Below, in pieces: positions 5,469-27,331 of a DNA stretch of 32,000 bases; the first letter of the stretch is position 1; each line of letters starts with the position of its first letter. Under the pieces are notes generated by a model. The model was given only the letters and a program-made list of their open reading frames with translations, was not told the DNA's origin and did no database searches. The DNA comes from Myxococcota bacterium (GTDB taxonomy: Bacteria; Myxococcota_A; UBA796; GCA-2862545). Location of the stretch: contig CBDCGT010000001.1 of assembly GCA_965216925.1 (NCBI GenBank), positions 86,047 to 118,046 on the forward strand, in the 5' to 3' direction. Made by a program: the position numbers and the translations under genes.

Positions 5469-8186
5469 CTAAAACAACTCCCACAGCCGCAACAGCACCT
5501 CGGCATCCAACGCCGCGTACGCCTCCTGCCTCGGCGTCAGCGGGCGCCGCGTCCAGTCGCTCGTCTGCTGCGCCTTGTCGAGCTCGATGCCGAGCTCGCG
5601 CAGGCAAACCGCCTTCAGGCTGTGACCGCCCTTCGCCCTCTTTCTCATCACCCGTGAGCGCTCGAGGGTGTCGACGACGTTCTCGATCTCGATGCCGTAC
5701 TTCCGCAGCACCGACCGCTCGAAGTTGGCGTTGTGGATGACCTTCACGATGGTGTCGTCGGCCATCAGCTCGCCCAGGGGTGCCAGGTCGGACAGCTCGA
5801 GGGCGTCCATGAGGAACACGCGGTCCTTCGTCGCGACCTGCACGAGGCACAGCGCCCGGCTGGCAAGCGTGGTCTCGACGTCGAGGCCGAGCACCTCGGA
5901 CTCCGACAGCATCGCGCACGCTTCTCGGAGACCCTCCTCATCGCGAACCCAGTGCACAGGCAACGAGCCGCGCACCTTCGGCTCCGACAGGTCGACGTGT
6001 TCGACGCGCTCGGGCACCTCGCTCTCGTCGGCTCGACGCTCCCGCAGCGATGCGGGCACCCGCACGAGCTCGCCGGCCTCGCCGCCTGCGAGCCATGCCC
6101 AGGCGCCCGCGACGTCGAGCAGGTACTCGCCGAGCATCTCGCGCTCGACCCAGGGCGGCATCAGCGGCTGGAACTTGCTCAAACGGTAGTTTGGAAGCGA
6201 CTGGCCGACCTCGTCCCAGAGTGCGTCGTTCTCCCAGAACTCGACCTCGGACAACGCCGCCACGGCCTCTTGGAATCGGCGCTCATCGAGGTCGTCGCTG
6301 CGCACCTTCACGAGGTAGTTGTCGGGGATGACCTTCCAGTCGCTGCCCACGGCCTCGAGGGCGTAGCGCAGGGTCGAGTTGATGCGACCGCCGGCGAAGG
6401 TCCACCAGCGAATCTCGCCGGGCTCGACCTCGATGCCGCCACGCACGGGCTCGAGCATTCCGTCGAAGCCCTCGCGCTGCTGTCGGAGCACCTCGACGGC
6501 CGTCTCGTGCAGGTAGGGGTAGGCCTCGTCCGAGGTCAGCACCTCGAGCACCTTCTGACAGACGTCGAAGCCCAGGAACTGCGGCAGGTAGCCGCCCCAT
6601 GTCGGCTGCCGACCCCGCGGGGCAGGCTGAACGACGATGCGCCGGTCGTCGTGGAAGATGCGGTCGACCGCCCACGCCCGACCGCCCAGCAGGAAACAGC
6701 TCACTCCGTCGACGAGACGGTCGACGAAGCCCTGCTGCAGTGTGCCGATGGGCTGCCCGGCACCCGTCTGCACCGAGTAGCTCTGCGGGCTCGAGAAGAC
6801 GGCGAACAGCTCCATGAAGTTGCGTCGGCCGAAGCGCTTCTCGGCACGAGGGCCGAGCACGAGGCGGCCGCTCATCTGCAGCAGTGCCCGGTCTCGCAAC
6901 ATCCAGGCCACCAGGCGCTCGAACTCGGCCCGGTGGATGCGTCGGAAGTCGGGTACCTGGCTCAGGTGTGCCCAGGCCTCTTCGAGGGGAATCCCGTCGG
7001 CCGCGAGTGCCATCGCGAGCAGCTGGTGAACCAGCACCGGCCAGCACCGGTCGGTGACCTCGACCGACTCGACCCATCCCGCCTTGGCGAGCTCGACGAG
7101 CGCGATGGACTGGGTCACCGCCTCGGTCGTCTCGCAGAAGAAGGTCGTGTTCGCTGCCTGACCAGCTCGGCGGCCCGTGCGGCCCATCCGCTGCAGGAAC
7201 GAGCTCACGGTGTCCGGGGCCTCGGCCTGCAGCACGCGGTCCAGGTCGCCGACGTCGATGCCGAGCTCGAGGGTGCTCGTGGCCACGATGCACGCATCGG
7301 AGCCGTGGTGGAAGCGCTCCTCGGCGAGCGCTCGCTCTTCCTTCGACACCGCGCTGTGATGCACGAACACCGTCGTTCCCGACCGGCGCATGTGCTCGGC
7401 AACTGCCTCGGTCGCCGCACGGGACTGGCAGAAGAACAGGCTCTTCTTGCCACGAGCCATCACGGCAGCGTCGTGGGCGAGCAGGCCGAGCTCCGCGCGG
7501 TGCACGACGAGCAGCTGCTTGCGACCTGGCTTCTTGGGAGGGTCGACGACGCGGCCTGGTCGCTCCGAGGTGCCCTGGAGCCAGGTGAGGATGGCATCGG
7601 GGTTGCCGACGGTCGCGCTGAGGCCCACGCGCTGCACGTCGTGCCGCGACAGCTTGGCCAGGCGCTCGAGCACGCTCATCAGGTGCGCGCCTCGGTCCGA
7701 ACCCGCCAGTGCATGGATCTCGTCGATGACCACGATGCGCAGGTCGGCGAACAGCTTCGCCGCGTCGACACGCTTCGAGACGAGCATCACCTCGAGGGAC
7801 TCGGGTGTGGTCATCAGCAGCTCGCTCGGCTGCTTCAAGAACTTCGTCCGGGCGCTCGACGAGGTGTCGCCGTGCCAGACGAATCGGTCCAGGCCGACCA
7901 TCTCTGTGTAGAGGCCCAGACGGTCAGCCTGGTTGTTGAGCAGGGCCTTGATCGGAGCGATGTAGAGGGCCGCGAGTCCTCGAGGCGGGTCGTCGACCAG
8001 GTTCGACAACGTCGGGAACATCGACGCTTCGGTCTTGCCCCCGGCCGTCGGGGCCAGGACGACGGCATTGCACCCGTCGAGCAGCGCTGCCCCAGCCAGT
8101 TCCTGCACCTCGCGCAGGCTCGACCATCCCAGCCGAGCGACGATGGCCTCCTGGAGGCGTGGGTTGAAGCGGGCGAAGACGCTCAC
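5469..8186 (-). CDS. brxHI: BREX BrxHI: Lhr-like DExH helicase with a C-terminal DEDDy 3'-5' exonuclease (RNase D/WRN-exo-like) domain (905 aa)
   Basis: Helicase motifs: VLAPTAGGKTEA, VVIDEIHALAGSDRGAHL, GLSATVGNP, ATSTLELGIDVGDLD, LQRMGRTGRR, followed by a long Lhr-type C-terminal region. Exonuclease motifs in roughly the last 165 aa (nt about 5469-5965): LGLDVETT (ExoI), HNANFERSVL (ExoII), YAALDAEVL (ExoIII Y-x3-D). The start is set at GTG 8186 (AGGA 6 nt upstream), overlapping the upstream TGA. The track start at 8306 adds a non-coding-looking extension. Confidence 0.85.
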   Translation of the reverse strand: MSVFARFNPRLQEAIVARLGWSSLREVQELAGAALLDGCNAVVLAPTAGGKTEASMFPTLSNLVDDPPRGLAALYIAPIKALLNNQADRLGLYTEMVGLDRFVWHGDTSSSARTKFLKQPSELLMTTPESLEVMLVSKRVDAAKLFADLRIVVIDEIHALAGSDRGAHLMSVLERLAKLSRHDVQRVGLSATVGNPDAILTWLQGTSERPGRVVDPPKKPGRKQLLVVHRAELGLLAHDAAVMARGKKSLFFCQSRAATEAVAEHMRRSGTTVFVHHSAVSKEERALAEERFHHGSDACIVATSTLELGIDVGDLDRVLQAEAPDTVSSFLQRMGRTGRRAGQAANTTFFCETTEAVTQSIALVELAKAGWVESVEVTDRCWPVLVHQLLAMALAADGIPLEEAWAHLSQVPDFRRIHRAEFERLVAWMLRDRALLQMSGRLVLGPRAEKRFGRRNFMELFAVFSSPQSYSVQTGAGQPIGTLQQGFVDRLVDGVSCFLLGGRAWAVDRIFHDDRRIVVQPAPRGRQPTWGGYLPQFLGFDVCQKVLEVLTSDEAYPYLHETAVEVLRQQREGFDGMLEPVRGGIEVEPGEIRWWTFAGGRINSTLRYALEAVGSDWKVIPDNYLVKVRSDDLDERRFQEAVAALSEVEFWENDALWDEVGQSLPNYRLSKFQPLMPPWVEREMLGEYLLDVAGAWAWLAGGEAGELVRVPASLRERRADESEVPERVEHVDLSEPKVRGSLPVHWVRDEEGLREACAMLSESEVLGLDVETTLASRALCLVQVATKDRVFLMDALELSDLAPLGELMADDTIVKVIHNANFERSVLRKYGIEIENVVDTLERSRVMRKRAKGGHSLKAVCLRELGIELDKAQQTSDWTRRPLTPRQEAYAALDAEVLLRLWELF

Positions 8187-8614
8187 GGTTCCTGCTCTCG
8201 AAAATGCCCGCTGGCGCCACCCCGAGAAGCACTCATCCCGTGTACACGGAAGCTCTCGGCCGCGAGCGGCACATTCGGGAAGTGGTAGCAGCGCTTCTCT
8301 TCCCACGACTCGGACTCGGTGACCTCACCGAAGACGTCCTGGAGCTCGCCGAGGGTCATCGCGATGGCCCACGGAGCCACGCCCTTCGGCCGGATGTACT
8401 GCACGAGGATTCCGTCTGGTGGCAGCATCTCCCAGGCGTCTCGCTTCATGTGCACGCGGGTGCTGGAGTAGGCGACCAGCACGGTGTCGCCGATGTGATG
8501 CCGCTGGGGCCGTGTTCCCGGGTCGCCACGCTCGAGCAGGGCTCGAACAGCCGGGTGCGCCACCACGCTTCCGCGCGATGCCGGCCGTGTCCAGCGGCGC
8601 CGAGGGCCCCCCAC
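8183..8614 (-). CDS. Hypothetical protein (up to 143 aa) wedged between brxD and brxHI
   Basis: Strong G/C third-position bias through the body (…HIGDTVLVAYSSTRVHMKRDAWEMLPPDGILVQYIRPKGVAPWAIAMTLGELQDVFGEV…). GTG 8614 lies 3 nt after the brxD stop, and the TGA overlaps the brxHI GTG. No family recognised, and the exact start is uncertain. Confidence 0.6.
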   Translation of the reverse strand: MGGPRRRWTRPASRGSVVAHPAVRALLERGDPGTRPQRHHIGDTVLVAYSSTRVHMKRDAWEMLPPDGILVQYIRPKGVAPWAIAMTLGELQDVFGEVTESESWEEKRCYHFPNVPLAAESFRVHGMSASRGGASGHFREQEP

Positions 8615-8617
8615 GGG

Positions 8618-12797
<4,180 letters not shown>

Positions 12798-12801
<4 letters not shown>

Positions 12802-13430
12802 GGGTCCTTCCGCGCGATGGAATCGGTCAGCCTGTAGAAGCTTGTTGTTGGATTCCGGCCGGACTCGTCCATCTCGTCGGCGTCTTCATCGAGTGCGCGG
12901 GCGCGTCTGGTGGCATCGCCGACCCCCGCCGCGACCGTCGTGAAGGTGAGACCCTTGTCGTAGCTCGGAATGAACGAGGCCAGCATCGCCTGGACATCGT
13001 GGCGGTGTCTGGCCCCAGGGCTGTCCCGGAAGTGTAGGAGGAGCCAGAGCTCTATGCATGGGTTCGAGACGGCCAATTTGAAGGCGTTGGCTCTGGCCAT
13101 CGTGCAGGCGTCATGGAAGCGCTCGTGCTCATCCCGGTCGAACACGCACCATACTTCGTCGAACTTCAGGTAGTCGTCGCCGTGTTGCTTCGCCTGCCGA
13201 GCGGCGTCCTCTGCCAGCGCCTTGGCGATTTCCACCACCTTCTTGGGGTCGCCCTGTTCATTGGGGATGGCGACCTCCACGGACGCGTTGCGGACATGCC
13301 GTTGATAGCCCTTGATGTACTCGGGCTCCGTCCGCTTGCCCTCACAGACTACCAGTAGCCTCCGTCGAGGATCCCGGGTTGCAGCACGCCTTGCCGAACG
13401 ACGGGCTCGGTTTCTCCGGTTGCTCCCCAT
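12798..13430 (-). CDS. RloB-like (AbiLii-type, Toprim-like) protein (210 aa)
   Basis: Hallmark RloB motifs: LLVVCEGKRTEPEYIKGY, VWCVFDRDEH, KLAVSNPCIELWLLLHF. The start is set at ATG 13430, 4 nt after the ATPase stop. The track start at 13568 overlaps the ATPase gene. Confidence 0.85.
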
Positions 13431-13434
13431 TCCG

Positions 13435-14712
13435 CTACTCCGGCACGCGTGTGAGGTCGCCCAGGAAGGGAATGGCACCGTAGCGCCCCTGTAGGTAGCC
13501 GCGCTCCAGGTTTTCCGCCTTTCTCGGCTTGTAATCCGTGAGTGGATAGGCGCAGGTTGCCCCCTCATTGCTCTTCTCGGTCAGCCAGACCTGATCACGA
13601 CGCAATGCGGTCTCACCGGTGGTCGTCCCCAGAAGATTGGTGTCGTGCGTGGTGAAGAGCAGCTGGGCATTTCGCGGGTTGGTGGCCGGATCGTTGAACT
13701 GCTGCAGCACCCTGAGAGCGAGGAGAGGGTGGAGGCTCGCCTCCAGCTCATCGACAACGAGTAGGCCTCCCCGGTGTAGAACGTCGAGGAGCTCTGGGCC
13801 CAGTTGAAAAAGGGTCAGGGTGCCTTGGGACTCCTCTTCGAGGGGCAGCCAGGCTTCCTCCGAGGCGCTTTGGTGACGGACGAGGATTCCCTCGCGCCGC
13901 CACGGTGGTCGGTCGCTAGACTCCTCGTCCGCGGACTCGAGTTTGAAGTCCAAGATACCGACATCCGCTGCCTGGAGAAGGTCGCGGAACGAGTCTAGGC
14001 GACCGTCCTCCTCCCGCTCAAACAGAGTCGTCTGTGTGCGACCGTTGGCTCTCTGGGCAAGGGCGCGGCGGAACCAGTTGCGCCGGAAGAGCCCCAGACC
14101 TCGATGCCTGTTTCGGCGACCACCGACTGCACCTACGCTCCGGAACCACCAGTAGATGGGTGCGAGCTGCTGGTGCTTGTGCTGCACGGCCGCCGCGAGG
14201 AACAGGGCATTGGGTCGCGTGACCTGCTCGACCAGACGGTTCTCGCCATGAAGGTGATCACCGAACTTGAAGTCGTCCCCTTCGCGCTCGAACCAGGTTT
14301 GCTTCCGCCCCCGCGGCCAGGCGTACAGCCACTCCTCGAGGAACCGCTCATCGTCCGCGACGAAGCCGTACCGGTAGCGCACCTCATCGACGAGGATGGT
14401 GACCTCGAACAACGATGGCTCCTGCGTCTTGGTGCCCCAGGCGAACGGCTCTCTGGGGACGCCTCCCTCCGGAGCCCATGCGCGATGAGACATCATTACC
14501 GCGTTGCCCATGAAGCTCATCGCTGCCAGAAGATTGCTCTTGCCGCTCGCATTCGCTCCGTAGACTGCTGCAGCGGGAAGAAGAGGAGTTTCGTGCCCCG
14601 GGACCTTGCGCGGTCGCTGGTCGCTCGCATCCCCGCCACGCCCTGCTTCCATGGTCACCACCTGCTCATCTCGGATTGAGCGGTGGTTCTCGACGCGAAA
14701 CTCGATGAGCAT
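13435..14712 (-). CDS. RloA/AbiLi-like ABC-type (AAA_21-like) ATPase (425 aa)
   Basis: MLIEFRVENHRSIRDEQ..., Walker A YGANASGKSNLL, Walker B/D-loop LLVVDELEASLHP, H-loop LFTTHDTNLL. The start is ATG 14712, with GGAGG 6 nt upstream. Confidence 0.85.
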   Translation of the reverse strand: MLIEFRVENHRSIRDEQVVTMEAGRGGDASDQRPRKVPGHETPLLPAAAVYGANASGKSNLLAAMSFMGNAVMMSHRAWAPEGGVPREPFAWGTKTQEPSLFEVTILVDEVRYRYGFVADDERFLEEWLYAWPRGRKQTWFEREGDDFKFGDHLHGENRLVEQVTRPNALFLAAAVQHKHQQLAPIYWWFRSVGAVGGRRNRHRGLGLFRRNWFRRALAQRANGRTQTTLFEREEDGRLDSFRDLLQAADVGILDFKLESADEESSDRPPWRREGILVRHQSASEEAWLPLEEESQGTLTLFQLGPELLDVLHRGGLLVVDELEASLHPLLALRVLQQFNDPATNPRNAQLLFTTHDTNLLGTTTGETALRRDQVWLTEKSNEGATCAYPLTDYKPRKAENLERGYLQGRYGAIPFLGDLTRVPE

Positions 14713-14814
14713 CGTGGACCTCCGCCCGCATCCTATGCGTGTCACGTCGTGATTTCTGCAATGAATTTGCGGATTCGGAGAGGTAAGCGGGCCGTCCGCG
14801 GGTTTAGGGTGGCG

Positions 14815-19037
<4,223 letters not shown>

Positions 19038-19041
<4 letters not shown>

Positions 19042-20537
19042 TGGGGGGCTCCGACTGCCGTGCGTAGCAGTGACTCGGTCTGCTCGACGAGGTGCGGGTG
19101 ATTCCAGTTCTCTGGGCCGAGGACGACCAAGACGGCGGTGTCGTCGAGTCGCGGGGTCGGCCCGTCGACACCCCACGCGGCGGTTGCGCGTGCCCACCGC
19201 TCGTCGCGAAGACCGGTTGGTCCCTCGATGTTGAAACGTAGCGCGGCGAGGTCTTCATCGACGCGTGCTCGCAGGCGAGCGCTGTGTGGAAGTACACCGG
19301 TGCGCGTCAACCATCCCCCCTCGGTCCACTGGAAACGACGCCTGCCCGCCTCGTCCCGCCCGACGAGTCGAAGCAGGATCTCGGAGACGGAACGATAGAG
19401 CGCACGTGAGACCGGGCTCCACGCCCGAATTCCGCGTCTAAGCTCAGGAATATGCAACCGGGGCGCGTGTGGGGACGACGCGGCACCGCGCGTATTCCAG
19501 GCGCGGTCTGGCGTCAGTCGGTGCAGCTGGCGAAGCGCTGATCGGCCGTGTGCGAGCGCGGCGGCGAAGTCGGCCTTCCGTAGCGTGCGGTTGCCGTCAG
19601 AGGTCAGAATGTCGAGTATGTACCAGCGCTTTTCTCCGGCCGCTCGACGCCAAGGCGTCGTCTCATTCCTCAGCGCCCGTGCCAGGGCCTTGTTGGCATA
19701 GATTTCGAGCTTCCATCGGACCCTCTGCGCGGCGCTGCCGGCATCGATCGAGAGGCACAACCCCTGGATCGCGGTCCCTGGGAGGGAGCTGTTGAACCAC
19801 AGTCCAGGTCCCCACCCTTCGCTGGGATCGCATCGGAGCTTCTTCCGCTGCAGTGACCGCTCGAGCTTCGTTCGGATGGCGTTGTTTGGCCCCAACGCCA
19901 CCAGAACCGCCTCTAGCTTCTCCTTGAGTCGGGGAAAGCGCTTCATGAGCTGGTCTGCCCTGTTCCAGGCATCCGCTTCGAGGGCGAGGCGGGCGTCGCC
20001 TACTTGAGCTCGCAGCATGAGATCCCGCAGGTCTCGCCGCGAGGCTCTCTGTGCCTTGGAGCCTGCGGCAAGGCCCTCCAGCACGTCGTCCCAGGTCAGG
20101 ACCGGCGACGAAGTCGGGCATCGACCTGCCCGGCGCCTTTCTACGAGCGAGACGACGAGCGCCCCCGGGAACGCCGTTCGGTAGCTGTCGAGCTGCTCTT
20201 CTGACGGCTCGTCGTCACCGACCTTGGCTTCGAGAACCAACAGTGCTGATTGCGCCACTCCGAGGAGACATAGGACGACGTCTGCCCGAACAGCACGGTC
20301 CTCCTCGGCGAGCCACACGGTCACCTGTGTCTGAACCTCGACGCGTCCATTCCAACTGCGTGGCGCCGACCAGCTCCCCAGGCGTCCGTGTTGACCCAGA
20401 ACGCGGTCCACCAGGAACCGGGTCAGTCGCCTATCGCGCTCCAGCTGACGGCCGAGGCACAGGCTGACGAAATCCTCCCTCGGAACCCGCTTGGTCGCCC
20501 GTGTGAGCTGATACAGCTGATCGAGGAAGCCCTCCAC
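19038..20537 (-). CDS. Hypothetical protein (499 aa) with an N-terminal PD-(D/E)xK (RecB-like) nuclease-type motif set, inserted between brxC and pglX
   Basis: N-terminal roughly 170 aa contain RADVVLCLLG...LLVLEAKVGDDEPSEEQLDSY, i.e. D...E-x-K followed by Q-x3-Y as in RecB-family nucleases. The remaining roughly 330 aa are not recognisable. The start is set at GTG 20537, 1 nt after the brxC TAG, and the stop overlaps the pglX ATG. Codons ending in A/T (CGA, GGA, TCA, CTA, GTA) are visibly more frequent than in flanking BREX genes. Confidence 0.6.
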
Positions 20538-20538
20538 G

Positions 20539-23500
20539 CTACACCAGCCGAATACGCACGCCGGCAGCAAGCTGCTTGGTGAGCCGTTCACGAATTTCAG
20601 TCAGGAGCGCTTCGACCTCTTCATCGGTCTCCAGCTCGCGGTTACGTAGCTTCAAGTTGACCTTGCGAATGATCGGTGTGGGCCCTGTGCTCAGCAGCTC
20701 ATCGAGCCGATCGTTGGCTTCGTCCTCTGCTCTGCGGAGAGCTACGACGAAGGGATCCTTCAGCGCTGCAAGGCTGGGCGCGACGGCGTCGGTCGTCGTC
20801 ACCGTCATGGCCTCGGTGATCGGCCTCAGCACGTGGTGCGATTGGTCGCCGGTGAGCGTGCTGAAGCCGTTTCGCACCTTGACTCGGCTACGAGCTTCAT
20901 CGGCCTCGTCTCCCTGCCACGTGAGGCGTCGCTGCCGCTCGGCCGTGTACGCATCGCGAATGGCCTTCAGGTCGGCCTCCAGGGATGAGACGTCCCGCCA
21001 TGGGCGCTTGCCGTCGAGGTGTGCGGTGACCCGATCACCGGCTTCCCCGACCTCGGAGCTGAGAGCGCCGCTGTCCCGTAGCTGGGCGAGCTGGTGGTCC
21101 CTGACGCGGCCAGCCGTCACGACATCCTGGATAGCCTGTGATGTGAGCTCGGCATCGTAGATGTTCAGCAGCTGGATGCCGTCTCGAAGCTCATCCAGGC
21201 GCCGCTTGACGAGCTGCACGGTCGGCTTGGTCTGTCGGCTGGAAGCTACGCACCGCTCGAGAACGTCCTGGAGCTTTGCCAGGGCCTCGGGGACTCCGCC
21301 ATGGCCTGGTAGCTGGTCGATGCGCTCGAGCACGCTGCGCAGGCGGCGTGCCTGCCCTGGGAAGAGCTGTGACACGGCGTCGGCGATGGCGTGGTCTTCG
21401 CGGTCCATCTGGTGGTCGAGCTGCTTGGCGAAGAAGCTGCAGATCTTCGCGCGAGCCTGGAACCCGATGTCGTCCTCGCCCGAGGGAAAGAACGAGGCCC
21501 GCCGGAAGCCGCGGTCCTTGTCGAACAGGTCGCGAACGCCGGCGTCTCGGATGGCGGTGATCTCGGCCCCGCCGTCAGGCTGCACCCGGAGCTTGCCGGC
21601 ACGCAGAAGTCCGGCGACACACGCCTTCACGACGTTGGCGGTGTAGCCATACGGTGGGCCGCCGAAGTGCGCGAGCAGCGTCGTGCCACCCAGGCCACCC
21701 TCGGCCTCGATGTACTCCTGTACCCGCCGAGGAACGACGCCAGCGCAGGTAGGCACGTGTCGGCCGGCATCGAGCTCGAGGATGCCGAGCTCGCCAGACA
21801 AGAACTTCGGCGACGGCCCCGACAGCTCGCTCTCGACGAGCTGCATGAGCTCGCTCGGCGCGATGTTCGTGGCCACGATGTGCGGGAACAGGTCGGGCAG
21901 GGTTCGTGTGGCTGCTTGGCTCAGGGCGGCGGGGAAGGTGGGGCCATGCTCCTTCGGATCGATGGCACGACCGCGGAAGTACATGCGGCCGGCCAGCCAG
22001 GCGTGTGCGACCGCTTCACGCACCCGTGGCTCGAGGTCTTCGACCCGGTTCTCTTCTTGCTGCAGCAGCAGTTTGCGAGCGGCGTTCAGGGACTCGCGCC
22101 GCGGTTTGTACTTGTCGACCATCTTTCGGGAACGGGCGAGATCCCGAGCCTTCTCGTCGATCTGGTCGGTGTCGCCGCAGACCCATACCAGGCGGTTCTC
22201 GAGAGCGGTCTCGGCGCTCCGCTTCACCCAGGTGCTCTCGGTGCGCTCGTCCTTGGCCACGAACCGGAAGTCCACGCGCATTGCGGCGTCATCGCGCGGG
22301 TCGACGACGATGGCATCGTCGAGTCGCCGCCCATCCGAGAGAACGCCGGCCCAGGGGAAGGGACGGCCGCCCATTCGGGGACGGTCTGGGCGTGCGAGCA
22401 GGTACTTCAGCGCGTCCATGACAATGTCGCTGATGACTTCTCGGGGAACGCCGAGGTCGCGTCGGTCTCGCTCCCATTCCTCGCCGGCCGAGGACTGAAT
22501 CTTGTAGCCGTGCTTCTCGGAGTACCCCAGCAGGTTGCGTCGCTTGAGCTCCTCGAGCGCCTCGGTCACCGCCGGCACGTTGTTGCCGAGGTCGACGCGG
22601 TCGTACAGGCATTGGGCCACGAGCTTCGCGTCGGTCGCGATGGTGTCCTGGATGAGCTCGAGAAGGGCCACGGCCTTGGCCGCGCGAACCAGGAGTCCGG
22701 AGTCGTCGTTGGCGCACTGATTGAGGATGCGGGCCATGCTGGCCTGCACATCGGAGTCGAGCGCGGTGTGCTGCACCTCGTAGATCTGGTCGAGGGTGAC
22801 CAGCGTGCCGACCGGCATCTCGGCCAGCTTCTGATCGCGGAACAGCTCGCCGAGCAGCTGCAGCAGCCCTCGGATGGCCTGGTCGTCGCCCTGGGCCCGA
22901 CTCGAGCGGGTGCGAAGGGCGCTCGTGATCTGCAGCAGCAGGTCGATGTGCCCCGGCAGCATCGGGTAGACCTCGACGAACTCCTCGGGCGTGACCGCTT
23001 CACAGCCGTAGGCGTACAGCTTCAGGCTCGGCCGATTCGCGTCGAACATCGACCGAAGATCAGCCTCGGCAGACGACTTCTTCTGCAGCAGGCGCTTGTG
23101 CACGACGTCGCGGATGTTGGTCGCGTGGAGGTGCACGCGCAACTTCGGGGGGAAGCGGTCTTTGGCCCACACGAGAAAGCTGTTGCCGGCCTGCTGGTCG
23201 ATCATCTGCTGGCCGAGTGCGAGCAGCCACACCGCGCCCTTCTGCCGAGCGCCGAGCGCCGAGGTGAAGGCACGCAGGCGGTCGACCCGGTCGGAGTGAC
23301 CGAGCACGTACTGGGAGACCTCGTCGATGACCAGGAAGAGCGTCGAGCCGGGGCGGCGGAAGCCGACCATGTCTCCGATCGCGCGAACGGCCTCTTCGGG
23401 AGACTCCGCACGAGCATGGGTGCCCGCCCGCGCGATGAACCAGCTCATCGGGTCGGTGTAGCGCTCCGGGTACATGGCGTTCATCACCTGGGAGAAGGCT

Positions 23501-24168
23501 TCCTCGGCCAGTGCGCTGTCCTTCACCGCCGACCACGGCTCGCCCAGGGCCTCTGCGGCGACCTTCTCGAAGCGAGCCCACTCGCCGTCGCGCTCGAGCG
23601 CGAGCTCGAAGTCGGCCACCAGGGGCTCCGTGGTGCAGTACCCCAACCGGGTCTGCACCTGCCGGACCGCGGCGGCGTGGATCTGCTCGTTGTCTCGGGC
23701 GATGCCGCCGATGTCGAACACGACCGCGATGGGGTCGATCTTCTGACGCAGCGTGGCCCAGGCACTTCGAAGCTCGTCGGCCCTGGGTGACGTGTCCCGC
23801 GCGAGCCACGCCTCGGCCAACGACCGTCCGTCGGGCAAAGCCACGCCGTCGAGGGAGAGTCCGAGGAGCTTCGCGAAGCTCGACTTACCGGATCCGTAGA
23901 AGCCAGAGATCCAAGCCGTCGGCAGCTCGGGCCCGCCCTTCTTGTCGAGCTCCTCGGAGATGCTGCGCAACAGTCGCGTGTACTGCTCGTGAATTCCGTT
24001 CGGAACCCGCTTGTGGTTCGGGTGTTCGGCAGGCCAGCCGCCGGTGATGATGTACTCGGACACCTCATCCGCGAGCTTCTCGGGGCTCTGCTCGTGGAAG
24101 TACACGACCGGGGGGATGTCGCGGGTGACGTCAGAGACGAACAGTTCTCGAATCAGCATGGTGCTCAC
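20539..24168 (-). CDS. brxC: BREX P-loop ATPase BrxC/PglY (1209 aa)
   Basis: N-terminus MLIRELFVSDVTRDIPPVVYFHEQSPEKLADEVSEYIITGG and Walker A GFYGSGKSSFAKLLG (nt about 23866-23904) are typical of BrxC. The GTG start at 24168 overlaps the brxB TGA. Confidence 0.9.
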   Translation of the reverse strand: MSTMLIRELFVSDVTRDIPPVVYFHEQSPEKLADEVSEYIITGGWPAEHPNHKRVPNGIHEQYTRLLRSISEELDKKGGPELPTAWISGFYGSGKSSFAKLLGLSLDGVALPDGRSLAEAWLARDTSPRADELRSAWATLRQKIDPIAVVFDIGGIARDNEQIHAAAVRQVQTRLGYCTTEPLVADFELALERDGEWARFEKVAAEALGEPWSAVKDSALAEEAFSQVMNAMYPERYTDPMSWFIARAGTHARAESPEEAVRAIGDMVGFRRPGSTLFLVIDEVSQYVLGHSDRVDRLRAFTSALGARQKGAVWLLALGQQMIDQQAGNSFLVWAKDRFPPKLRVHLHATNIRDVVHKRLLQKKSSAEADLRSMFDANRPSLKLYAYGCEAVTPEEFVEVYPMLPGHIDLLLQITSALRTRSSRAQGDDQAIRGLLQLLGELFRDQKLAEMPVGTLVTLDQIYEVQHTALDSDVQASMARILNQCANDDSGLLVRAAKAVALLELIQDTIATDAKLVAQCLYDRVDLGNNVPAVTEALEELKRRNLLGYSEKHGYKIQSSAGEEWERDRRDLGVPREVISDIVMDALKYLLARPDRPRMGGRPFPWAGVLSDGRRLDDAIVVDPRDDAAMRVDFRFVAKDERTESTWVKRSAETALENRLVWVCGDTDQIDEKARDLARSRKMVDKYKPRRESLNAARKLLLQQEENRVEDLEPRVREAVAHAWLAGRMYFRGRAIDPKEHGPTFPAALSQAATRTLPDLFPHIVATNIAPSELMQLVESELSGPSPKFLSGELGILELDAGRHVPTCAGVVPRRVQEYIEAEGGLGGTTLLAHFGGPPYGYTANVVKACVAGLLRAGKLRVQPDGGAEITAIRDAGVRDLFDKDRGFRRASFFPSGEDDIGFQARAKICSFFAKQLDHQMDREDHAIADAVSQLFPGQARRLRSVLERIDQLPGHGGVPEALAKLQDVLERCVASSRQTKPTVQLVKRRLDELRDGIQLLNIYDAELTSQAIQDVVTAGRVRDHQLAQLRDSGALSSEVGEAGDRVTAHLDGKRPWRDVSSLEADLKAIRDAYTAERQRRLTWQGDEADEARSRVKVRNGFSTLTGDQSHHVLRPITEAMTVTTTDAVAPSLAALKDPFVVALRRAEDEANDRLDELLSTGPTPIIRKVNLKLRNRELETDEEVEALLTEIRERLTKQLAAGVRIRLV

Positions 24169-24806
24169 GGGTAGATTCGGGGGCGGTAGTCGTTGTCGGG
24201 GTTCAGGGTGCCCATGAAGGACAGGCCTGTCGGGCCGCGCCGCTCCCCTGGGTAGAGGAGCACGACCGGGACGTTGCTCGTGCGGCCGTCGAGGTGCCGC
24301 AGCAGCGCCGACGAGCGGAAGAACGGGTAGAGAGCCCCCGCCCGTCCAACGAGCGCCAGGGTGCGGTCGACCTTGTCGGGGTGGGCCTCGGCGAAGTCGG
24401 TGATGACGCGGCTGCAGTCGGCCGCAATGCCCTCGGGGCCCTCGATGAGCGGGGCGAGCTTGGACTTCAGGTAGTTCAGACCGCGCTCGTCATCGATCTC
24501 GCTCAACCGCTTTTCCATCTGGATGACGCGGTCGATCCACTCCTGACCCTGGTCGCGAGCCCGGTCGAGCAGCAGCTTCTGAAGGGAGATGGATATTACG
24601 ACCCAGCCGTGTGCCACGAGCTCGTTCGACAGCTTCTGAACCTCGCCTCGAAGCTCGAACTCCTCGGACGGGTCGTAGGGCACGATGGCGAATCGGTAGT
24701 TGCGCATCGTGCTGATGCGGGGCCCGTCCTCGTGCACCAGGTCCTCGCGCAACGCGGCGAGGGCGCGCTGGAATGGCTTGCGCTGGAAGAGAGGGGCGTC
24801 CTTCAC
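24165..24806 (-). CDS. brxB: BREX protein BrxB (DUF1788 family, 213 aa)
   Basis: Position between brxA and brxC. The sequence …RNYRFAIVPYDPSEEFELRGEVQKLSNELVAHGWVVISISLQKLLL…ALVGRAGALYPFFRSSALLRHLDGRTSNVPVVLLYPGER… fits BrxB. The start is GTG 24806, with GGAGG 6 nt upstream, overlapping the brxA TGA. The track ORF extends to 25340 through an out-of-frame shadow of brxA. Confidence 0.85.
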   Translation of the reverse strand: MKDAPLFQRKPFQRALAALREDLVHEDGPRISTMRNYRFAIVPYDPSEEFELRGEVQKLSNELVAHGWVVISISLQKLLLDRARDQGQEWIDRVIQMEKRLSEIDDERGLNYLKSKLAPLIEGPEGIAADCSRVITDFAEAHPDKVDRTLALVGRAGALYPFFRSSALLRHLDGRTSNVPVVLLYPGERRGPTGLSFMGTLNPDNDYRPRIYP

Positions 24807-25579
24807 CACCCACCTCCGGCGGCCTGTCCGTCGCCATCGGAGGCCCAGGCGGTCAGCGTCGGGTACTGCCAGCCGAAGTCCAGCAGATCGCCCTGCCGGC
24901 GGAAGCGCAACGCCTCGAGACCCTTCAGCCGGTCCTCGAGGAACGAGCCATCGAGGCCGACCGAACGGAAGTAGGGGTTGTCCAGGAGCGTGCCTTCGAT
25001 CTCGACCCCACGGAGCAGGTACACGCCGTAGGTGAGGGCGGAGTCGGTGACCCGGGGGATCAGGATCTTCCGTGGGCCGCGGTGCTTCTCGTCGAGCAAT
25101 CCGGCACCGGACGCGCACGAGAGCAGCTTGCTGGCGAACTGGATTCGGGTGGTCATCGTCCAGCGACCCGGCCCCTGCTCGGCGACCCACCCCACGACCA
25201 GGTCGCGGGTGACGTCGTCGCGGAACCCCTCGCGACGTTCGACCAGGTAGTCGCCGGTGAACTGCCGATACAGCGGGTCGGCGAGCTGCAGGTGCCAGTG
25301 GCAGATGATCTGCCGAGTCTCGGGGTCCATGTGCTGCCACTCGTGCAGCACGCGGAAGGCGTCGGGGTAGGCATCGAAGCGCAGGCGGAAGTTGCGGAGG
25401 AGCACCTGAACGCGAGCGAGGCTCTTGGCGCCAAACCAGTAGTTGTCGAAGGCCTCCTGGGCGTCAGCCACATGGCCAGGTGTTGCCTGCCGCCAGTAGG
25501 AGCGGCTGTCGTCGACCTCGAGCGCGCACTTCAGCAGGCGCGTGTGAATCTCGGTGGTCTCGACGGGCTGCTTGCTCAC
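24803..25579 (-). CDS. brxA: BREX protein BrxA (DUF1819 family, 258 aa)
   Basis: Position immediately upstream of brxB. The N-terminal IHTRLLKCALEVDDSRSYW and downstream YWFGAKSLARVQVLLRNFRLRF resemble DUF1819/BrxA. The GTG start at 25579 overlaps the upstream TGA. Confidence 0.75.
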   Translation of the reverse strand: MSKQPVETTEIHTRLLKCALEVDDSRSYWRQATPGHVADAQEAFDNYWFGAKSLARVQVLLRNFRLRFDAYPDAFRVLHEWQHMDPETRQIICHWHLQLADPLYRQFTGDYLVERREGFRDDVTRDLVVGWVAEQGPGRWTMTTRIQFASKLLSCASGAGLLDEKHRGPRKILIPRVTDSALTYGVYLLRGVEIEGTLLDNPYFRSVGLDGSFLEDRLKGLEALRFRRQGDLLDFGWQYPTLTAWASDGDGQAAGGGW

Positions 25580-26154
25580 GGCGTGCTCCGGTAGTGCGGC
25601 ATCGGGTAGGCGTCGCCCAACGGAGCCAGCGCCGCCACCAGGTGCTCGGTGGCGAGCTCGAGGGAGTCGGGCATCGTTCCCCGGATGCGACGCCCGGCGG
25701 GGGCCGTGACCGCGTCGGATTCGCGATGGGCGGATACCCAGCTCGCGAAGGCGTCGCGGTCCCAGTCTTCGGTGATGATCTCGCCAAGGCCCGGCAGTGC
25801 CTGCTTCGGGTCACGTCCGGCGCTCTTGAGGTCATGGAAGCGCTCGTCGAGCCGCTCGTCGATGTGGAACCCGAACCGGAGCAGGGTGCGTAGCTGGTCG
25901 GGGTCGGCGGCCTTGCCCCGGAGCGCAGCGTCTTGCCGGCGAGCGGCCTCACGAACCCCCTGGAGCACTGCCCAGCGCCAGGTGTGGGGCAGCAGCCGGC
26001 GGAAGAGGTCCTCGCCTCCGAACTCGTTGGCGAGGTCGGTGCGCCACCAGCCGAGACGCGGCTCGTCGCCACCTTCGCCGGCCCAGGCGACGGCCAGCTG
26101 GGCGGTGAGGATGAGGTCGAGGGTGGATGTGGGGATGGGGGATGTGGTGGTCAT
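25576..26154 (-). CDS. brxE: First gene of the BREX operon (192 aa), in the BrxE position of type 6 BREX. Function unknown.
   Basis: ATG 26154 (MTTTSPIPTSTLDLILTAQLAVAWAGEGG...) with GAGG upstream, good G/C third-position bias, and a stop overlapping the brxA start. Called BrxE by position only; I cannot verify homology from memory. The track ORF start at 26586 is an unlikely extension. Confidence 0.5.
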   Translation of the reverse strand: MTTTSPIPTSTLDLILTAQLAVAWAGEGGDEPRLGWWRTDLANEFGGEDLFRRLLPHTWRWAVLQGVREAARRQDAALRGKAADPDQLRTLLRFGFHIDERLDERFHDLKSAGRDPKQALPGLGEIITEDWDRDAFASWVSAHRESDAVTAPAGRRIRGTMPDSLELATEHLVAALAPLGDAYPMPHYRSTP

Positions 26155-26461
26155 GAGGCGCCTCGCCCGCAAGTGCGAGCTGGACCGGGGAACGTGTCCA
26201 GTCACGTCAGAGAGACGGAGAGGATTACCACAGGAGAACGGCCTGGCCGGGCGGGATCTGCATTCCGCTGCGTTTTGGGTGTAGAGCCCAGCCGACATGT
26301 TGCGCCACCCCTCGGATCCATTGGTTGAGTGAGGCGTGGCGCGGTGTGACCCGATGGGTGCTATGATCGGACTTGAAACAGGGTGGTTGGTGTGCTTGCT
26401 GTGCGCGTGCCACGGCATTCCAATTGTCCACGACTCGAACATGTGGTCGCGCGGGTACTGG
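26155..26461 (-). promoter_or_regulatory. 307-nt non-coding region upstream of the BREX operon: presumed promoter plus 5' leader. It contains the inverted repeat CTGGAC-N10-GTCCAG (26180-26201) about 25 nt upstream of the brxE ATG.
   Basis: No credible ORF on either strand. It is the only sizeable gap upstream of twelve co-oriented genes. The inverted repeat was read directly. No confident -35/-10 assignment is possible by eye. Confidence 0.3.
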
Positions 26462-27331
26462 CTAGTCCAGTTCACCGCAAAGCTCGCTGTGGTCGAGTTC
26501 GGACCAATCTTTGGCGTAGTTCCGGAGTTGCTCGACGTTGGCCAGGTATACTTCCAGGTTCCCCTTCGTGCAGCCCTTGTAGTCAAGCGATAGCTGAAAT
26601 GCCGCGCGTTGGGACGTCAACTCCGCGGACTCCTTCAGCTCCGCCGCGGCCTGATTTACCGCTGTGACAACGCTGCCACACGACTTGTCTGTGAATGAGT
26701 GGTGCGCCGCGCCGATCAGGTCGCCTAGACTAAAGTTGAACCGCCGTAGTGCGACCTTGAGCTGTGCGTTTCGCGCGGCCAGGGGATCGTCGGCGTCCTT
26801 CGCCAGGTCGTCGGGAGTGGCGACTTCGACAAGAATGCGGATCAGAGGGTGCTCGAAGAGCTCTACTGCGGAGACAACGTATGGGAAGTGACGCTGGGCC
26901 CACGTGCGAATACGGTCCGCTCCGAGCTTCTGCATTGCGGCGTCCTTAACGGGGGCTTGGAGTGTACTTCCCAGCTGATCCGTCAACCGTGAGACGACGA
27001 GGGGTGGGGCGGGCTTGAGCGTGCCAACTGAATCGCAACCGGCAGGGAATCTGGCTGCATCTGTCGGTCCCCCGTACGAAGGGCCAGGGGTACCATCGAC
27101 GCCATTGCCATAGACGGAGTCCAACGGCAGGTGAATGACCACGGCTCGTGGCCGTTCTGGGTCCGTTGGCTGAAACGGCCCAGAAACTGCGGCGCCGAAT
27201 GGATCCGGCGCATCTGGTGAGAACGGATCCCGGCTTCCTTCCAGCGCGCTTTCGTCCTGGCCGAGCTCAAGGCCGTCGTCTTGGGCACCAGCGACGCCCA
27301 CCAGGATGGTGGCGAACAGAAACGATGTCAT
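26462..27331 (-). CDS. Secreted protein of unknown function (289 aa), translationally coupled to the MACPF-like gene
   Basis: ATG 27331 overlaps the upstream TGA (ATGA). N-terminal signal-like MTSFLFATILVGVAGAQDD. Four Cys in the mature part (AGCDS, KSCGS, KGCTK, ELCGE). The track ORF start at 28009 is an out-of-frame shadow of the upstream gene. Confidence 0.6.
   Translation of the reverse strand: MTSFLFATILVGVAGAQDDGLELGQDESALEGSRDPFSPDAPDPFGAAVSGPFQPTDPERPRAVVIHLPLDSVYGNGVDGTPGPSYGGPTDAARFPAGCDSVGTLKPAPPLVVSRLTDQLGSTLQAPVKDAAMQKLGADRIRTWAQRHFPYVVSAVELFEHPLIRILVEVATPDDLAKDADDPLAARNAQLKVALRRFNFSLGDLIGAAHHSFTDKSCGSVVTAVNQAAAELKESAELTSQRAAFQLSLDYKGCTKGNLEVYLANVEQLRNYAKDWSELDHSELCGELD

What the first reader, a model, noticed from the sequence alone, without database searches (positions are those of the whole stretch)
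19038..20537. Unknown 499-aa protein with a RecB-like nuclease motif, spliced between brxC and pglX
Seen in the sequence:
- The gene starts 1 nt after the brxC stop and its TGA overlaps the pglX ATG, so it must be co-transcribed and probably co-translated with core BREX genes.
- The N-terminus carries D...ExK plus QxxxY (ADVVLCL...LVLEAKVGDDEPSEEQLDSY).
- The C-terminal roughly 330 aa are unrecognisable.
- Third-codon positions are visibly more A/T-rich than in brxC or pglX.

Established knowledge: canonical BREX of any type has nothing between brxC and pglX. Embedded accessory effectors do have precedent, for example the type IV restriction enzyme BrxU in the pEFER BREX.

Inference: this is a horizontally inserted accessory nuclease, or a BREX-coupled effector or sensor, of a family I cannot name.
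Basis: partly seen in the sequence, partly recalled or inferred. Interest (0 to 1): 0.7.

Follow-up and report, generated by a model that had tools for sequence, protein, structure and literature searches.

The report
Rare accessory nuclease inside BREX operon
A 499-residue protein from a very rare, unnamed family, with an intact RecB-type nuclease site, sits as an optional extra gene between two core genes of a type 6 BREX phage-defence operon; extra nucleases inside BREX loci are already a known theme, so this is a new example rather than a new principle.

Summary
A minus-strand ORF (19038-20537, GTG start) begins 1 nt after the brxC stop, and its TGA overlaps the pglX ATG (ATGA). The locus is a complete type 6 BREX: brxE-A-B-C, target, pglX, AbiLi/ii, pglZ, brxD, brxHI.

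The protein matches nothing in Pfam, NCBIfam, PADLOC or PDB sequences. It belongs to a family of about 25 clusters among 1.84 billion representatives.

E21-D22, D86, E103xK105 and Q115xxxY119 are kept in all full-length members but one. An AlphaFold model (pLDDT 92) has the alpha-beta-beta-beta-alpha-beta nuclease core. Foldseek returns only weak hits, the interpretable ones being PD-(D/E)xK nucleases. The C-terminal ~340 residues fold confidently but match nothing.

It is not a core component. None of 79 other type 6 loci has it; 41 of 70 have brxC abutting pglX, and 23 of 70 carry other cargo in that slot (PDC-S27, PDC-M15, OLD-type ATPase pairs, an IS, a second pglX).

Yet 7 of 12 family contexts lie in exactly this slot, without co-divergence with BREX. 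The other five are outside BREX.

Best reading: an optional, exchangeable accessory nuclease co-expressed with BREX-6. Its trigger, and any dependence on BREX, are unknown.

The parts
19038..20537 (-). Target gene: 499 codons plus TGA, GTG start. Member of an unnamed family of ~500-aa proteins.
   Evidence: ORF and junctions. Start fixed by alignment of homologue N-termini. Family. AlphaFold model pLDDT 92.1, pTM 0.89.
20067..20537 (-). N-terminal PD-(D/E)xK (RecB/Cas4-like) nuclease domain, aa 1-157. Helix 20-34, strands 65-76, 81-92 and 98-104, helix 113-122, strand 127-132.
   Evidence: Secondary-structure order. Foldseek gave only weak hits (none at E <= 0.001; best 4e-3). The interpretable ones are PD-(D/E)xK nucleases: AF1548, MspJI, PaqCI, Can2, BamHI, Cap4 (mixed with aminotransferase chains) and Cas4, RecB-family, UL24, VRR-NUC.
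20181..20282 (-). Catalytic core motif D86 ... E103-x-K105 ... Q115-x-x-x-Y119.
   Evidence: Of 24 members covering this region, D86, E103 and K105 are kept in all but the degenerate P0017. Q115 is kept in 20 and Y119 in 21. Chance occurrence is 0.3% or less.
20472..20477 (-). E21-D22 (the 'REDF' motif) in the first core helix, the usual position of the additional acidic residue of PD-(D/E)xK sites.
   Evidence: Kept in all full-length members but P0017. Lies in helix 20-34 of the model.
19041..20066 (-). Helical linker (aa ~160-230) and two alpha/beta regions (aa ~240-345 and ~360-495). Family-conserved residues include G243, G259, W275, E278, W305, R332 and a PxAPR motif at 356-360. Function unknown.
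   Evidence: Confidently folded. No hit to any family, to PDB sequences or to BREX proteins. No internal duplication.
20535..20541 (-). Upstream junction: brxC TAG, one base, then the target GTG.
19038..19041 (-). Downstream junction ATGA: the target TGA overlaps the pglX ATG. A GGAG lies 8-11 nt upstream, inside the target's coding sequence.
   Evidence: pglX start supported by orthologues.
20539..24168 (-). brxC (1209 aa), type 6 BREX core ATPase.
   Evidence: PADLOC BrxC PDLC02486 full length (E = 0) and NCBIfam BREX_BrxC.
14815..19041 (-). pglX (1408 aa), type 6 BREX methyltransferase.
   Evidence: NCBIfam BREX_6_MTaseX 2121 bits, PADLOC PglX, Pfam Eco57I and MmeI_Mtase.
12798..14745 (-). 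Second embedded cargo: AbiLi (OLD-type AAA_21 ATPase) plus AbiLii (RloB), between pglX and pglZ.
   Evidence: GC3 0.75.
5469..12801 (-). Rest of the locus downstream: pglZ (9934-12801), brxD (~8618-9937), brxHI (5469-8306).
   Evidence: NCBIfam BREX_PglZ_6. PADLOC PglZ, BrxD (1e-172) and BrxHI.
24165..26170 (-). Rest of the locus upstream: brxB (24165-24770), brxA (24803-25579), brxE (25576 to ~26170).
   Evidence: PADLOC BrxB, BrxA and BrxE. NCBIfam BREX_6_BrxE.

Best explanation
The gene encodes an optional accessory nuclease carried as exchangeable cargo in the brxC-pglX slot of a type 6 BREX operon.

Shown:
- It is a real, conserved protein-coding gene of an unnamed and very rare family.
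- Its first ~157 residues have the fold order and the full catalytic signature (E/D ... D ... ExK ... QxxxY) of RecB/Cas4-type PD-(D/E)xK metal-dependent nucleases.
- It is absent from most type 6 BREX loci, where the slot is empty or holds other defence cargo.
- The family recurs in this same slot in distantly related versions, and it also occurs without BREX.

Inferred:
- It is transcribed with brxC and pglX and translationally coupled to them.
- It cuts DNA.
- The conserved ~340-residue C-terminal part targets or gates the nuclease, for example by recognising a DNA feature or a phage-derived cue.
- It gives the BREX-6 locus an additional DNA-cutting layer, in the way BrxU, PARIS/AbiL-type modules and other embedded nucleases are thought to back up BREX.

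Because it occurs alone elsewhere, it is probably able to act on its own.
For: Junctions and coding.

BREX-6 identity of all neighbouring genes.

Family: 25 real clusters at 50% identity among 1.84e9 representatives, nearly all ~500 aa (P0021 is spurious).

Catalytic residues are kept at 24-42% overall identity in every full-length member but one.

Structure: AlphaFold pLDDT 92.1, with a core of helix, three strands, helix, strand. Foldseek gave no hit at E <= 0.001. The best and most of the interpretable hits are PD-(D/E)xK nucleases in PDB (mixed with aminotransferase chains) and in BFVD.

Not a core component: 0 of 79 type 6 loci have it. In 41 of 70 the brxC-pglX gap is <=60 bp. In 23 of 70 the insert exceeds 300 bp, with PDC-S27, PDC-M15AB, a PDC-M07A-like OLD ATPase pair, an IS, or a second pglX. 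The nearest BREX relatives (Micromonospora, Streptomyces) have the empty site.

Slot preference: 7 of 12 interpretable family contexts lie after brxC in BREX-6 (+49, 43+46, 66, 76).

Exchange rather than vertical descent: window versus L097 shows PglX N-terminus 81% and BrxC C-terminus 67% identical, but the family protein only 29%. BREX and non-BREX members interleave in the tree.

Lower GC3.

Precedent: embedded PD-(D/E)XK, HNH and OLD/TOPRIM effectors in BREX loci (PMC12839542); BrxU and PARIS between BREX genes (PMC11341690).
Against: - There is no biochemical or genetic evidence for nuclease activity or for defence.
- The Foldseek matches are weak (best E = 4e-3) and cover the N-terminal third only.
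- No sequence profile of a known nuclease family matches. Only single-member marginal hits appear: PDDEXK_4 at 0.09 and NucS_C at 0.18.
- The function of two thirds of the protein is unknown.
- One lineage (P0005, L092) sits alone between transporter genes, which is not a defence context.
- The family is absent from phage, plasmid and IMG/VR collections, so no mobile vector is seen.
- Enrichment in the BREX-6 slot may mean real dependence on BREX, rather than autonomy.
Confidence: 0.6

Rival explanations
1. Obligate BREX-6 partner. The protein works only together with BREX-6 proteins, either as a nuclease directed by PglX/BrxC site recognition or as a guard that fires when PglX or BrxC is inhibited. 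On this view it is a facultative subunit, not independent cargo.
For: - 7 of 12 family contexts are in the same slot of a system found in only ~506 taxa (PMC12839542).
- Even the deepest branch (P0016, 24-29% identical) sits at brxC|fam|pglX.
- In 5 of the 6 loci where pglX is visible, the gene is the one immediately 5' of pglX. Spacings run from a -4 nt overlap to 89 nt, even when other cargo is present.
- In one non-BREX locus it directly follows ORC/STAND-type ATPases distantly like BrxC/BrxD.
Against: - Five lineages live without any BREX gene within the available flanks. One has 10 kb on each side.
- There is no co-divergence with PglX or BrxC.
- No fusion to a BREX protein is seen, and no sequence is shared with one.
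- In L093, ~1.9 kb separates it from pglX.
- Most type 6 loci do without it.
Confidence: 0.2
2. Selfish or mobility nuclease. On this view it is a homing- or recombination-promoting nuclease that maintains itself in, or drives cassette exchange at, the brxC-pglX hot spot. It would not be a defence effector.
For: - It occupies the same slot in closely related BREX loci with very different alleles, and the tree is interleaved.
- It lies at the pglX-proximal edge of multi-gene inserts in L001, L005 and L008.
- L008 has a tandem duplication.
Against: - 23 of 70 hot-spot inserts exist without it, so cargo insertion does not need it.
- It is always in the operon orientation with tight coupling.
- The empty and occupied junctions that were printed and inspected (not scanned for repeats) show no obvious repeats or target-site scars.
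- It is absent from phages, plasmids and viral contigs.
- The large conserved C-terminal part is unlike known homing or Rpn nucleases.
Confidence: 0.07
3. Not an active nuclease. On this view it is a nuclease-fold DNA-binding or regulatory protein, or a housekeeping repair factor that merely landed in the operon.
For: - Two thirds of the protein is of unknown function.
- One lineage is in a transporter neighbourhood.
- P0017 has lost the catalytic residues.
Against: - Every other full-length member keeps all of E21-D22, D86 and E103-x-K105, and nearly all keep Q115 and Y119, at 24-42% overall identity. That implies selection on catalysis.
- Most contexts are defence loci.
Confidence: 0.08
4. 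Unrecognised core component of type 6 BREX (for example a divergent BrxD).
For: It sits inside the operon with no intergenic space.
Against: - BrxD is present elsewhere in the locus (8618-9937, PADLOC 1e-172).
- 0 of 79 type 6 loci carry the family.
- The target gives no BREX model hit.
Confidence: 0.01

Closest known systems
Auxiliary PD-(D/E)XK 'REase' effectors embedded in BREX and BREX-related loci (comparative survey, PMC12839542, section 35)
   Same: A PD-(D/E)xK nuclease gene lying within the core BREX operon, flanked by core genes, optional, and proposed to act as an auxiliary or backup effector.
   Different: This family has no model or name. It carries a conserved ~340-aa C-terminal part with no recognisable relatives. 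It shows a marked preference for one slot (brxC-pglX) of one subtype (type 6). Whether that survey already counted it cannot be told from the text.
[quoted passage not shown]
   Same: A single-gene nuclease embedded among BREX genes that complements BREX (PMC11341690; PMC12839542).
   Different: By published description, BrxU has a ParB-like domain and an HNH domain, lies in the pglX-pglZ interval of a type 1 system, and recognises modified DNA. The target has a PD-(D/E)xK site and matches no Pfam or PADLOC family at all. It lies between brxC and pglX of a type 6 system.
PARIS (AriA/AriB) and AbiL-type OLD-ATPase/TOPRIM pairs embedded in BREX
   Same: Optional cargo inside the BREX operon. The window itself has AbiLi/AbiLii between pglX and pglZ, with the same lowered GC3.
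   Different: Those are two-gene ATPase plus TOPRIM systems with a known trigger logic (Ocr for PARIS). The target is a single gene with no ATPase domain.
RecB / Cas4 / AddB-type nuclease domains (Pfam PDDEXK_1, Cas_Cas4)
   Same: The motif set (acidic residue in the first helix, D, ExK, QxxxY) and the fold order. Cas4 and RecB-family proteins are among the Foldseek hits.
   Different: There is no significant profile match to PDDEXK_1 or Cas_Cas4. No helicase partner domain was detected. Whether the Cas4-type Fe-S cysteine cluster is present was not examined.
Single-polypeptide 'sensor plus PD-(D/E)xK effector' defence nucleases (Cap4, Can2/Card1, Shedu SduA, MspJI-type type IV enzymes)
   Same: General layout of a nuclease domain joined to a larger non-catalytic part. 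Weak structural hits to the nuclease domains of MspJI, Can2 and Cap4.
   Different: No SAVED, CARF, DUF4263 or SRA domain was detected. The structural matches cover only ~90-190 columns. No signalling enzyme is present in the locus.

Membership tests
PD-(D/E)xK (restriction-endonuclease-like) superfamily | Core fold: helix, three-stranded antiparallel sheet, helix, strand | tested here: met
   AlphaFold model (pLDDT 92): H20-34, E65-76, E81-92, E98-104, H113-122, E127-132. Foldseek hits are weak (best E ~4e-3); the interpretable ones in PDB and BFVD are PD-(D/E)xK nucleases.
PD-(D/E)xK (restriction-endonuclease-like) superfamily | Catalytic D in strand 2 and (D/E)xK in strand 3, conserved in homologues | tested here: met
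   D86, E103 and K105 are kept in 23 of 24 members covering the region.
PD-(D/E)xK (restriction-endonuclease-like) superfamily | Metal-dependent phosphodiester cleavage | not testable with these tools
   Needs purified protein.
RecB/Cas4-like nuclease family (PDDEXK_1, Cas_Cas4) | QxxxY motif in the helix after the ExK strand | tested here: met
   Q115 is kept in 20 of 24 and Y119 in 21 of 24 members, within helix 113-122.
RecB/Cas4-like nuclease family (PDDEXK_1, Cas_Cas4) | Significant match to the family profile | tested here: not met
   No Pfam hit for the target. Across 25 members there are only single marginal hits: PDDEXK_4 at 0.09 and NucS_C at 0.18.
Core component of type 6 BREX | Present in most or all type 6 loci | tested here: not met
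   0 of 79 loci have it. In 41 of 70, brxC and pglX are <=60 bp apart.
Core component of type 6 BREX | Match to a BREX protein model (BrxA-E, BrxHI, PglX, PglZ) | tested here: not met
   No PADLOC or NCBIfam hit. BrxD is found elsewhere in the locus. No similarity to any BREX protein of the window.
Embedded accessory cargo of a BREX operon | Lies between core genes in the operon orientation; absent from closely related loci; the same site holds alternative cargo elsewhere; the family also occurs outside BREX | tested here: met
   empty site in Micromonospora and Streptomyces relatives; PDC-S27, PDC-M15, OLD pair, IS, second pglX; non-BREX contexts.
BrxU / GmrSD type IV restriction enzymes | ParB-like N-terminal domain and HNH C-terminal domain (as described in PMC12839542) | tested here: not met
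   The target matches no Pfam or PADLOC family at all.
Shedu (SduA, DUF4263), Cap4 (SAVED), Can2/Card1 (CARF) | The family's sensor domain and nuclease profile | tested here: not met
   No Pfam or PADLOC hits. Foldseek alignments to Cap4 and Can2 cover ~125-140 columns only, at low probability for Cap4.
Anti-phage defence gene (functional class) | Confers resistance to phage when expressed | not testable with these tools
   Only guilt by association: 7 of 12 contexts are in BREX-6, and others lie beside type I R-M, STAND ATPases or an Mrr_N protein.

The most novel reading that the evidence does not exclude
The family is a dedicated, hot-swappable partner of type 6 BREX. Its unknown C-terminal domains would dock on PglX or BrxC, or sense their inhibition by phage anti-BREX proteins. 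Its RecB-type nuclease would then cut DNA. Some BREX-6 systems would thereby gain a true restriction or guard arm. The divergent alleles found in otherwise near-identical BREX loci would be the trace of an arms race.
Probability: 0.18. Interest if true: 0.7.

Novelty: new member of a known kind. Interest (0 to 1): 0.42.

Why it matters
How BREX stops phage is still debated, and type 6 BREX has, to my knowledge, not been studied experimentally.

This gene offers an uncharacterised, compact nuclease family. It has a clear catalytic site and a large domain of unknown fold, and it turns up again and again in one precise slot of BREX-6. That makes it a tractable handle. Deleting the gene, or mutating D86, E103 or K105, in a cloned locus would show whether embedded nucleases act independently, back up BREX, or guard it.

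The survey also shows that the brxC-pglX junction of type 6 BREX is a second cargo hot spot, besides the known pglX-pglZ interval. That is useful for mining new defence genes.

If the protein is simply an autonomous nuclease, it is one more entry in a long list.

Tried and rejected
- **BrxD hypothesis.** I suspected from memory that type 6 BREX might place brxD between brxC and pglX. This was rejected: BrxD lies after pglZ, and the target has no BrxD hit.
- **Word-indexed homologue searches.** They found only the protein itself and one relative, even with an 18-sequence profile. The exhaustive HMMER search was needed.
- **First AlphaFold run.** With a 2-sequence alignment it was useless (pLDDT 41.7). 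The 25-sequence alignment gave pLDDT 92.
- **Profile searches of the family.** Pfam and PDB sequence searches gave nothing meaningful. The apolipoprotein hit is compositional.
- **Internal duplication.** Nuclease domain versus the middle and C-terminal regions: none found.
- **Similarity to the window's BREX proteins.** None found.
- **Co-divergence with PglX or BrxC.** Rejected (Spearman -0.17).
- **Recombination tract into the brxC 3' end.** The low identity and low GC3 there are general features of BrxC, not specific to this window.
- **Mobile vectors.** Plasmid, phage and IMG/VR collections gave no match.
- **Promoter and terminator scan.** Nothing around the gene.
- **P0021.** This hit of the family search is an unrelated tandem-repeat protein.
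- **Source organism.** It could not be named: no accession was returned and the exact look-up failed.
Full report
**1. What is in the sequence**

The finding lies on the minus strand. brxC ends with TAG at 20541-20539. One base follows, and then GTG at 20537 opens a 499-codon frame. That frame ends with TGA at 19040-19038 and overlaps the ATG of the next gene at 19041-19039, reading ATGA.

The longest possible ORF starts 18 codons earlier, at GTG 20591, and this is the 517-aa version held in the public protein collection. All homologues begin at the position of the GTG at 20537 (M-x-D-F-L-x-R-L-Y).

A loose form of it arises in 0.3% of shuffles of this protein. A form that includes the hydrophobic context arises in none of 20,000 shuffles.

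GC3 is 0.733. The core BREX genes have 0.84-0.90, and the other inserted gene pair of the locus has 0.75.

**2. The surroundings**

The window holds a complete type 6 BREX operon on the minus strand:

| Gene | Coordinates |
|---|---|
| brxE | 25576 to ~26170 |
| brxA | 24803-25579 |
| brxB | 24165-24770 |
| brxC | 20539-24168 |
| target | 19038-20537 |
| pglX | 14815-19041 |
| AbiLi/AbiLii pair | 12798-14745 |
| pglZ | 9934-12801 |
| brxD | ~8618-9937 |
| brxHI | 5469-8306 |

The assignments rest on subtype-specific NCBIfam models (BREX_6_MTaseX, BREX_PglZ_6, BREX_6_BrxE) and on full-length PADLOC matches.

I first suspected the target might be BrxD. It is not: BrxD sits after pglZ. No promoter-like or terminator-like site lies near the gene. 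The ribosome-binding GGAG for pglX lies inside the target's last codons. Co-transcription and translational coupling are therefore the natural reading, but they remain inferences.

**3. What the protein is**

It matches no model in Pfam, NCBIfam or PADLOC and no PDB sequence.

The indexed homologue search found only itself and one 38%-identical protein. An exhaustive HMMER search of 1.84 billion cluster representatives found 26 hits. One of them is a spurious repeat protein. The real family is thus about 25 clusters, almost all ~500 aa long, and extremely rare.

The following residues are kept in every full-length member but one degenerate sequence, at overall identities of only 24-42%:

- E21-D22
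- D86
- E103-x-K105
- Q115-x-x-x-Y119 (in most members)

An AlphaFold model built on the 25-sequence alignment is confident (pLDDT 92.1, pTM 0.89). Its first 157 residues show helix (20-34), three strands (65-76, 81-92, 98-104), helix (113-122) and strand (127-132). The conserved residues fall where a PD-(D/E)xK site expects them.

Foldseek scores are weak (best E about 4e-3), with no match at E <= 0.001. The best and most of the interpretable matches are PD-(D/E)xK nucleases, and they cover only ~90-190 columns:

- Against the PDB: AF1548, MspJI, PaqCI, Can2, BamHI and Cap4, though many of the listed rows are aminotransferase chains that I regard as spurious.
- Against viral models: Cas4, RecB-family exonucleases, UL24 and VRR-NUC.

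From established knowledge, the combination D...ExK...QxxxY is the signature of RecB/Cas4-type nucleases. I therefore regard the nuclease fold and an intact active site as well supported. Formal membership of PDDEXK_1 or Cas4 is not met at the profile level.

The remaining ~340 residues comprise a helical linker and two alpha/beta regions. They are conserved (G243, G259, W275, E278, W305, R332, PxAPR at 356-360) and confidently folded. They match nothing, show no internal duplication and share nothing with BREX proteins. More sensitive structure libraries were unavailable.

**4. Is it a standard part of type 6 BREX?**

No. Using the PglX N-terminus I retrieved 79 type 6 loci from species-representative genomes. 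In 70 of them both the brxC end and the pglX start are visible:

| Distance from brxC to pglX | Loci (of 70) |
|---|---|
| <=60 bp | 41 |
| 61-300 bp | 6 |
| >300 bp | 23 |

None of the 79 loci contains the family, by tblastn or by an HMM search of the ORFs in 25 of the 29 gaps above 60 bp.

The closest BREX relatives of the window (Micromonospora, Streptomyces, Actinomadura) have the empty site. There, the brxC stop is followed by 17-20 nt containing GGAGG and then the pglX ATG.

The occupied sites carry varied cargo:

- PDC-S27 (three loci)
- an OLD-type ATPase with a small partner (PADLOC-scanned in L021; L077 inferred from matching ORF sizes only)
- PDC-M15A/B
- a DDE transposase
- a second pglX (Pfam- and PADLOC-scanned in L033; L035 inferred from a matching gap size and a ~1240-aa ORF only)

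The brxC-pglX junction of type 6 BREX is therefore a cargo hot spot. It is additional to the pglX-pglZ interval, where BrxU and PARIS are known to sit (PMC11341690) and where this window has its AbiL pair.

**5. Where the family lives**

Twelve distinct family contexts could be read. Seven are in type 6 BREX downstream of brxC:

| Locus (family member) | Arrangement |
|---|---|
| window | brxC, fam, pglX |
| L010 (P0008) | brxC, fam, pglX |
| L097 (P0016) | brxE-A-B-C, fam, pglX |
| L001 (P0002) | brxC, ZorA-ZorB-ZorE, fam, pglX |
| L093 | same as L001, with ~1.9 kb before pglX |
| L005 (P0004) | brxC, PDC-M15A/B, fam, pglX |
| L008 (P0006) | brxC, Mrr_N protein, fam, a 42%-identical tandem paralogue |

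Five contexts show no BREX gene in the available flanks:

| Locus (family member) | Neighbourhood |
|---|---|
| L003 (P0003) | directly after two ORC/STAND-type ATPases |
| L007, L092 (P0005) | alone between transporter genes |
| L011 (P0009) | element with a DUF927 primase-helicase, beside a type I R-M system |
| L096 (P0013) | next to an SNF2/RapA-like helicase |
| L095 (P0010) | short contig |

The family is absent from the plasmid, phage and IMG/VR collections.

BREX and non-BREX members interleave in a neighbour-joining tree. There is also no co-divergence with BREX. The window and L097 share 81% identity in the PglX N-terminus and 67% in the BrxC C-terminus, but only 29% in the family protein. 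The slot has thus been filled or refilled several times by different lineages of the same family.

GC3 of family members is 0.02-0.14 below that of their neighbours in every locus. The fast-evolving C-terminus of BrxC shows the same dip. I therefore read the GC3 signal as compatible with horizontal origin but not as proof of it.

**6. How it most likely works**

*Shown:* the gene is real and conserved; it has an intact PD-(D/E)xK/RecB-type site; it is optional and exchangeable inside a BREX-6 operon; the family is strongly enriched in this slot but not confined to it.

*Inferred:* it is made together with BrxC and PglX; it cleaves DNA with a divalent metal; its large C-terminal part targets or gates the nuclease; it adds a cutting layer to BREX. 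This mirrors the published view of embedded REase, HNH and OLD/TOPRIM modules as auxiliary or backup effectors (PMC12839542).

I put this reading at 0.6. The rivals are:

- Obligate BREX-6 partner or guard: 0.2. Slot fidelity across deep branches argues for it. The five BREX-free lineages and the lack of co-divergence argue against it.
- Selfish or mobility nuclease: 0.07.
- Non-catalytic or housekeeping protein: 0.08.
- Unrecognised core component: refuted.

**7. Comparison with the known, and verdict**

The closest precedents are:

- the auxiliary PD-(D/E)XK nucleases reported in BREX loci;
- BrxU;
- PARIS and AbiL modules;
- at the domain level, RecB/Cas4 nucleases.

The target works like these, as far as can be inferred. 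It is not a member of any named family. It fails the profile test for PDDEXK_1 and Cas4, and it lacks the defining domains of BrxU, Shedu, Cap4 and Can2.

I rate it a new member of a known kind. It is an unnamed, very rare nuclease family with an uncharacterised C-terminal module and an unusual fidelity to one slot of type 6 BREX. Interest is moderate (0.42). The principle is known. The family is a clean experimental handle on how embedded nucleases relate to BREX, and the hot spot itself is a useful place to look for further defence genes.

Noticed in passing
window 12798-14745 (-): A second embedded cargo lies between pglX and pglZ: AbiLi (OLD-type AAA_21 ATPase, 436-aa ORF) plus AbiLii (RloB domain). 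Its GC3 is 0.75, like the target's. This interval is the same one where BrxU and PARIS sit in type 1 BREX.
   Followed up: partly
window 943-4467 (+): A 1174-aa fusion of a Ser/Thr protein kinase, a UvrD-type helicase and a PDDEXK_1/Cas4-like nuclease. PADLOC gives PD-T4-6-like and GajB-like hits. It lies just beyond brxHI and is probably a further defence gene of the island.
   Followed up: partly
window 20538-20591 (-): The version of the target in the public protein collection is 517 aa (GTG 20591) and overlaps brxC by 53 nt. Homologue alignments indicate that the real start is GTG 20537 (499 aa).
   Followed up: yes
L001 9050-9994 and L093 9097-9975: The ZorE (HNH, DUF8245) proteins of the Zorya type II cassettes embedded in two BREX-6 loci end with ~55-75 residues similar to the C-terminus of type 6 PglZ (window PglZ aa 877-950; blastp 4e-8 and 6e-9; PADLOC PglZ model positions 901-950). 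This could be a shared docking module between embedded cargo and BREX.
   Followed up: partly
L013-L091 (79 type 6 BREX loci), brxC-pglX junction: The junction is an insertion hot spot: 41 of 70 loci are empty, and 23 of 70 carry more than 300 bp. Cargo includes PDC-S27 (L059, L063, L064), an OLD-type ATPase with a ~196-aa partner (L021; L077 by matching ORF sizes), PDC-M15A/B (L023), a DDE transposase (L090) and a second full-length pglX (L033; L035 by ORF size). Several inserts of 0.4-3 kb were not identified.
   Followed up: partly
L008 1806-4909: Two tandem paralogues of the family (42% identical) follow a 497-aa protein with a weak Mrr_N domain, all downstream of a brxC 3' end.
   Followed up: partly
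L003 785-6364: Outside BREX, a family member directly follows two P-loop ATPases: AAA_22, and AAA_16/STAND with a winged helix and a sub-threshold BrxC_BrxD Pfam hit. It precedes an unknown 546-aa protein. This may be a separate small system that pairs the nuclease with ORC/STAND-type ATPases.
   Followed up: no
window 20539-21440 (-), brxC codons ~900-1209: The C-terminal ~300 residues of BrxC are the most divergent part in every pairwise comparison (36-64% against 70-88% elsewhere). Their GC3 is lower (0.75), so composition dips in this locus track fast evolution as well as insertion.
   Followed up: yes
window 26462-29088 (-) and 30101-31579 (-): Long ORFs upstream of brxE (515, 586, 382 and 109 aa; the first two overlap) have no Pfam or PADLOC hit. 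In this high-GC DNA some may be spurious. They were not examined further.
   Followed up: no
L097 11486-13477: In this BREX-6 locus the gene called after the family member is a 663-aa PglX-like methyltransferase, about half the usual length, ending 26 nt before the contig end. It may be a split or truncated pglX.
   Followed up: no
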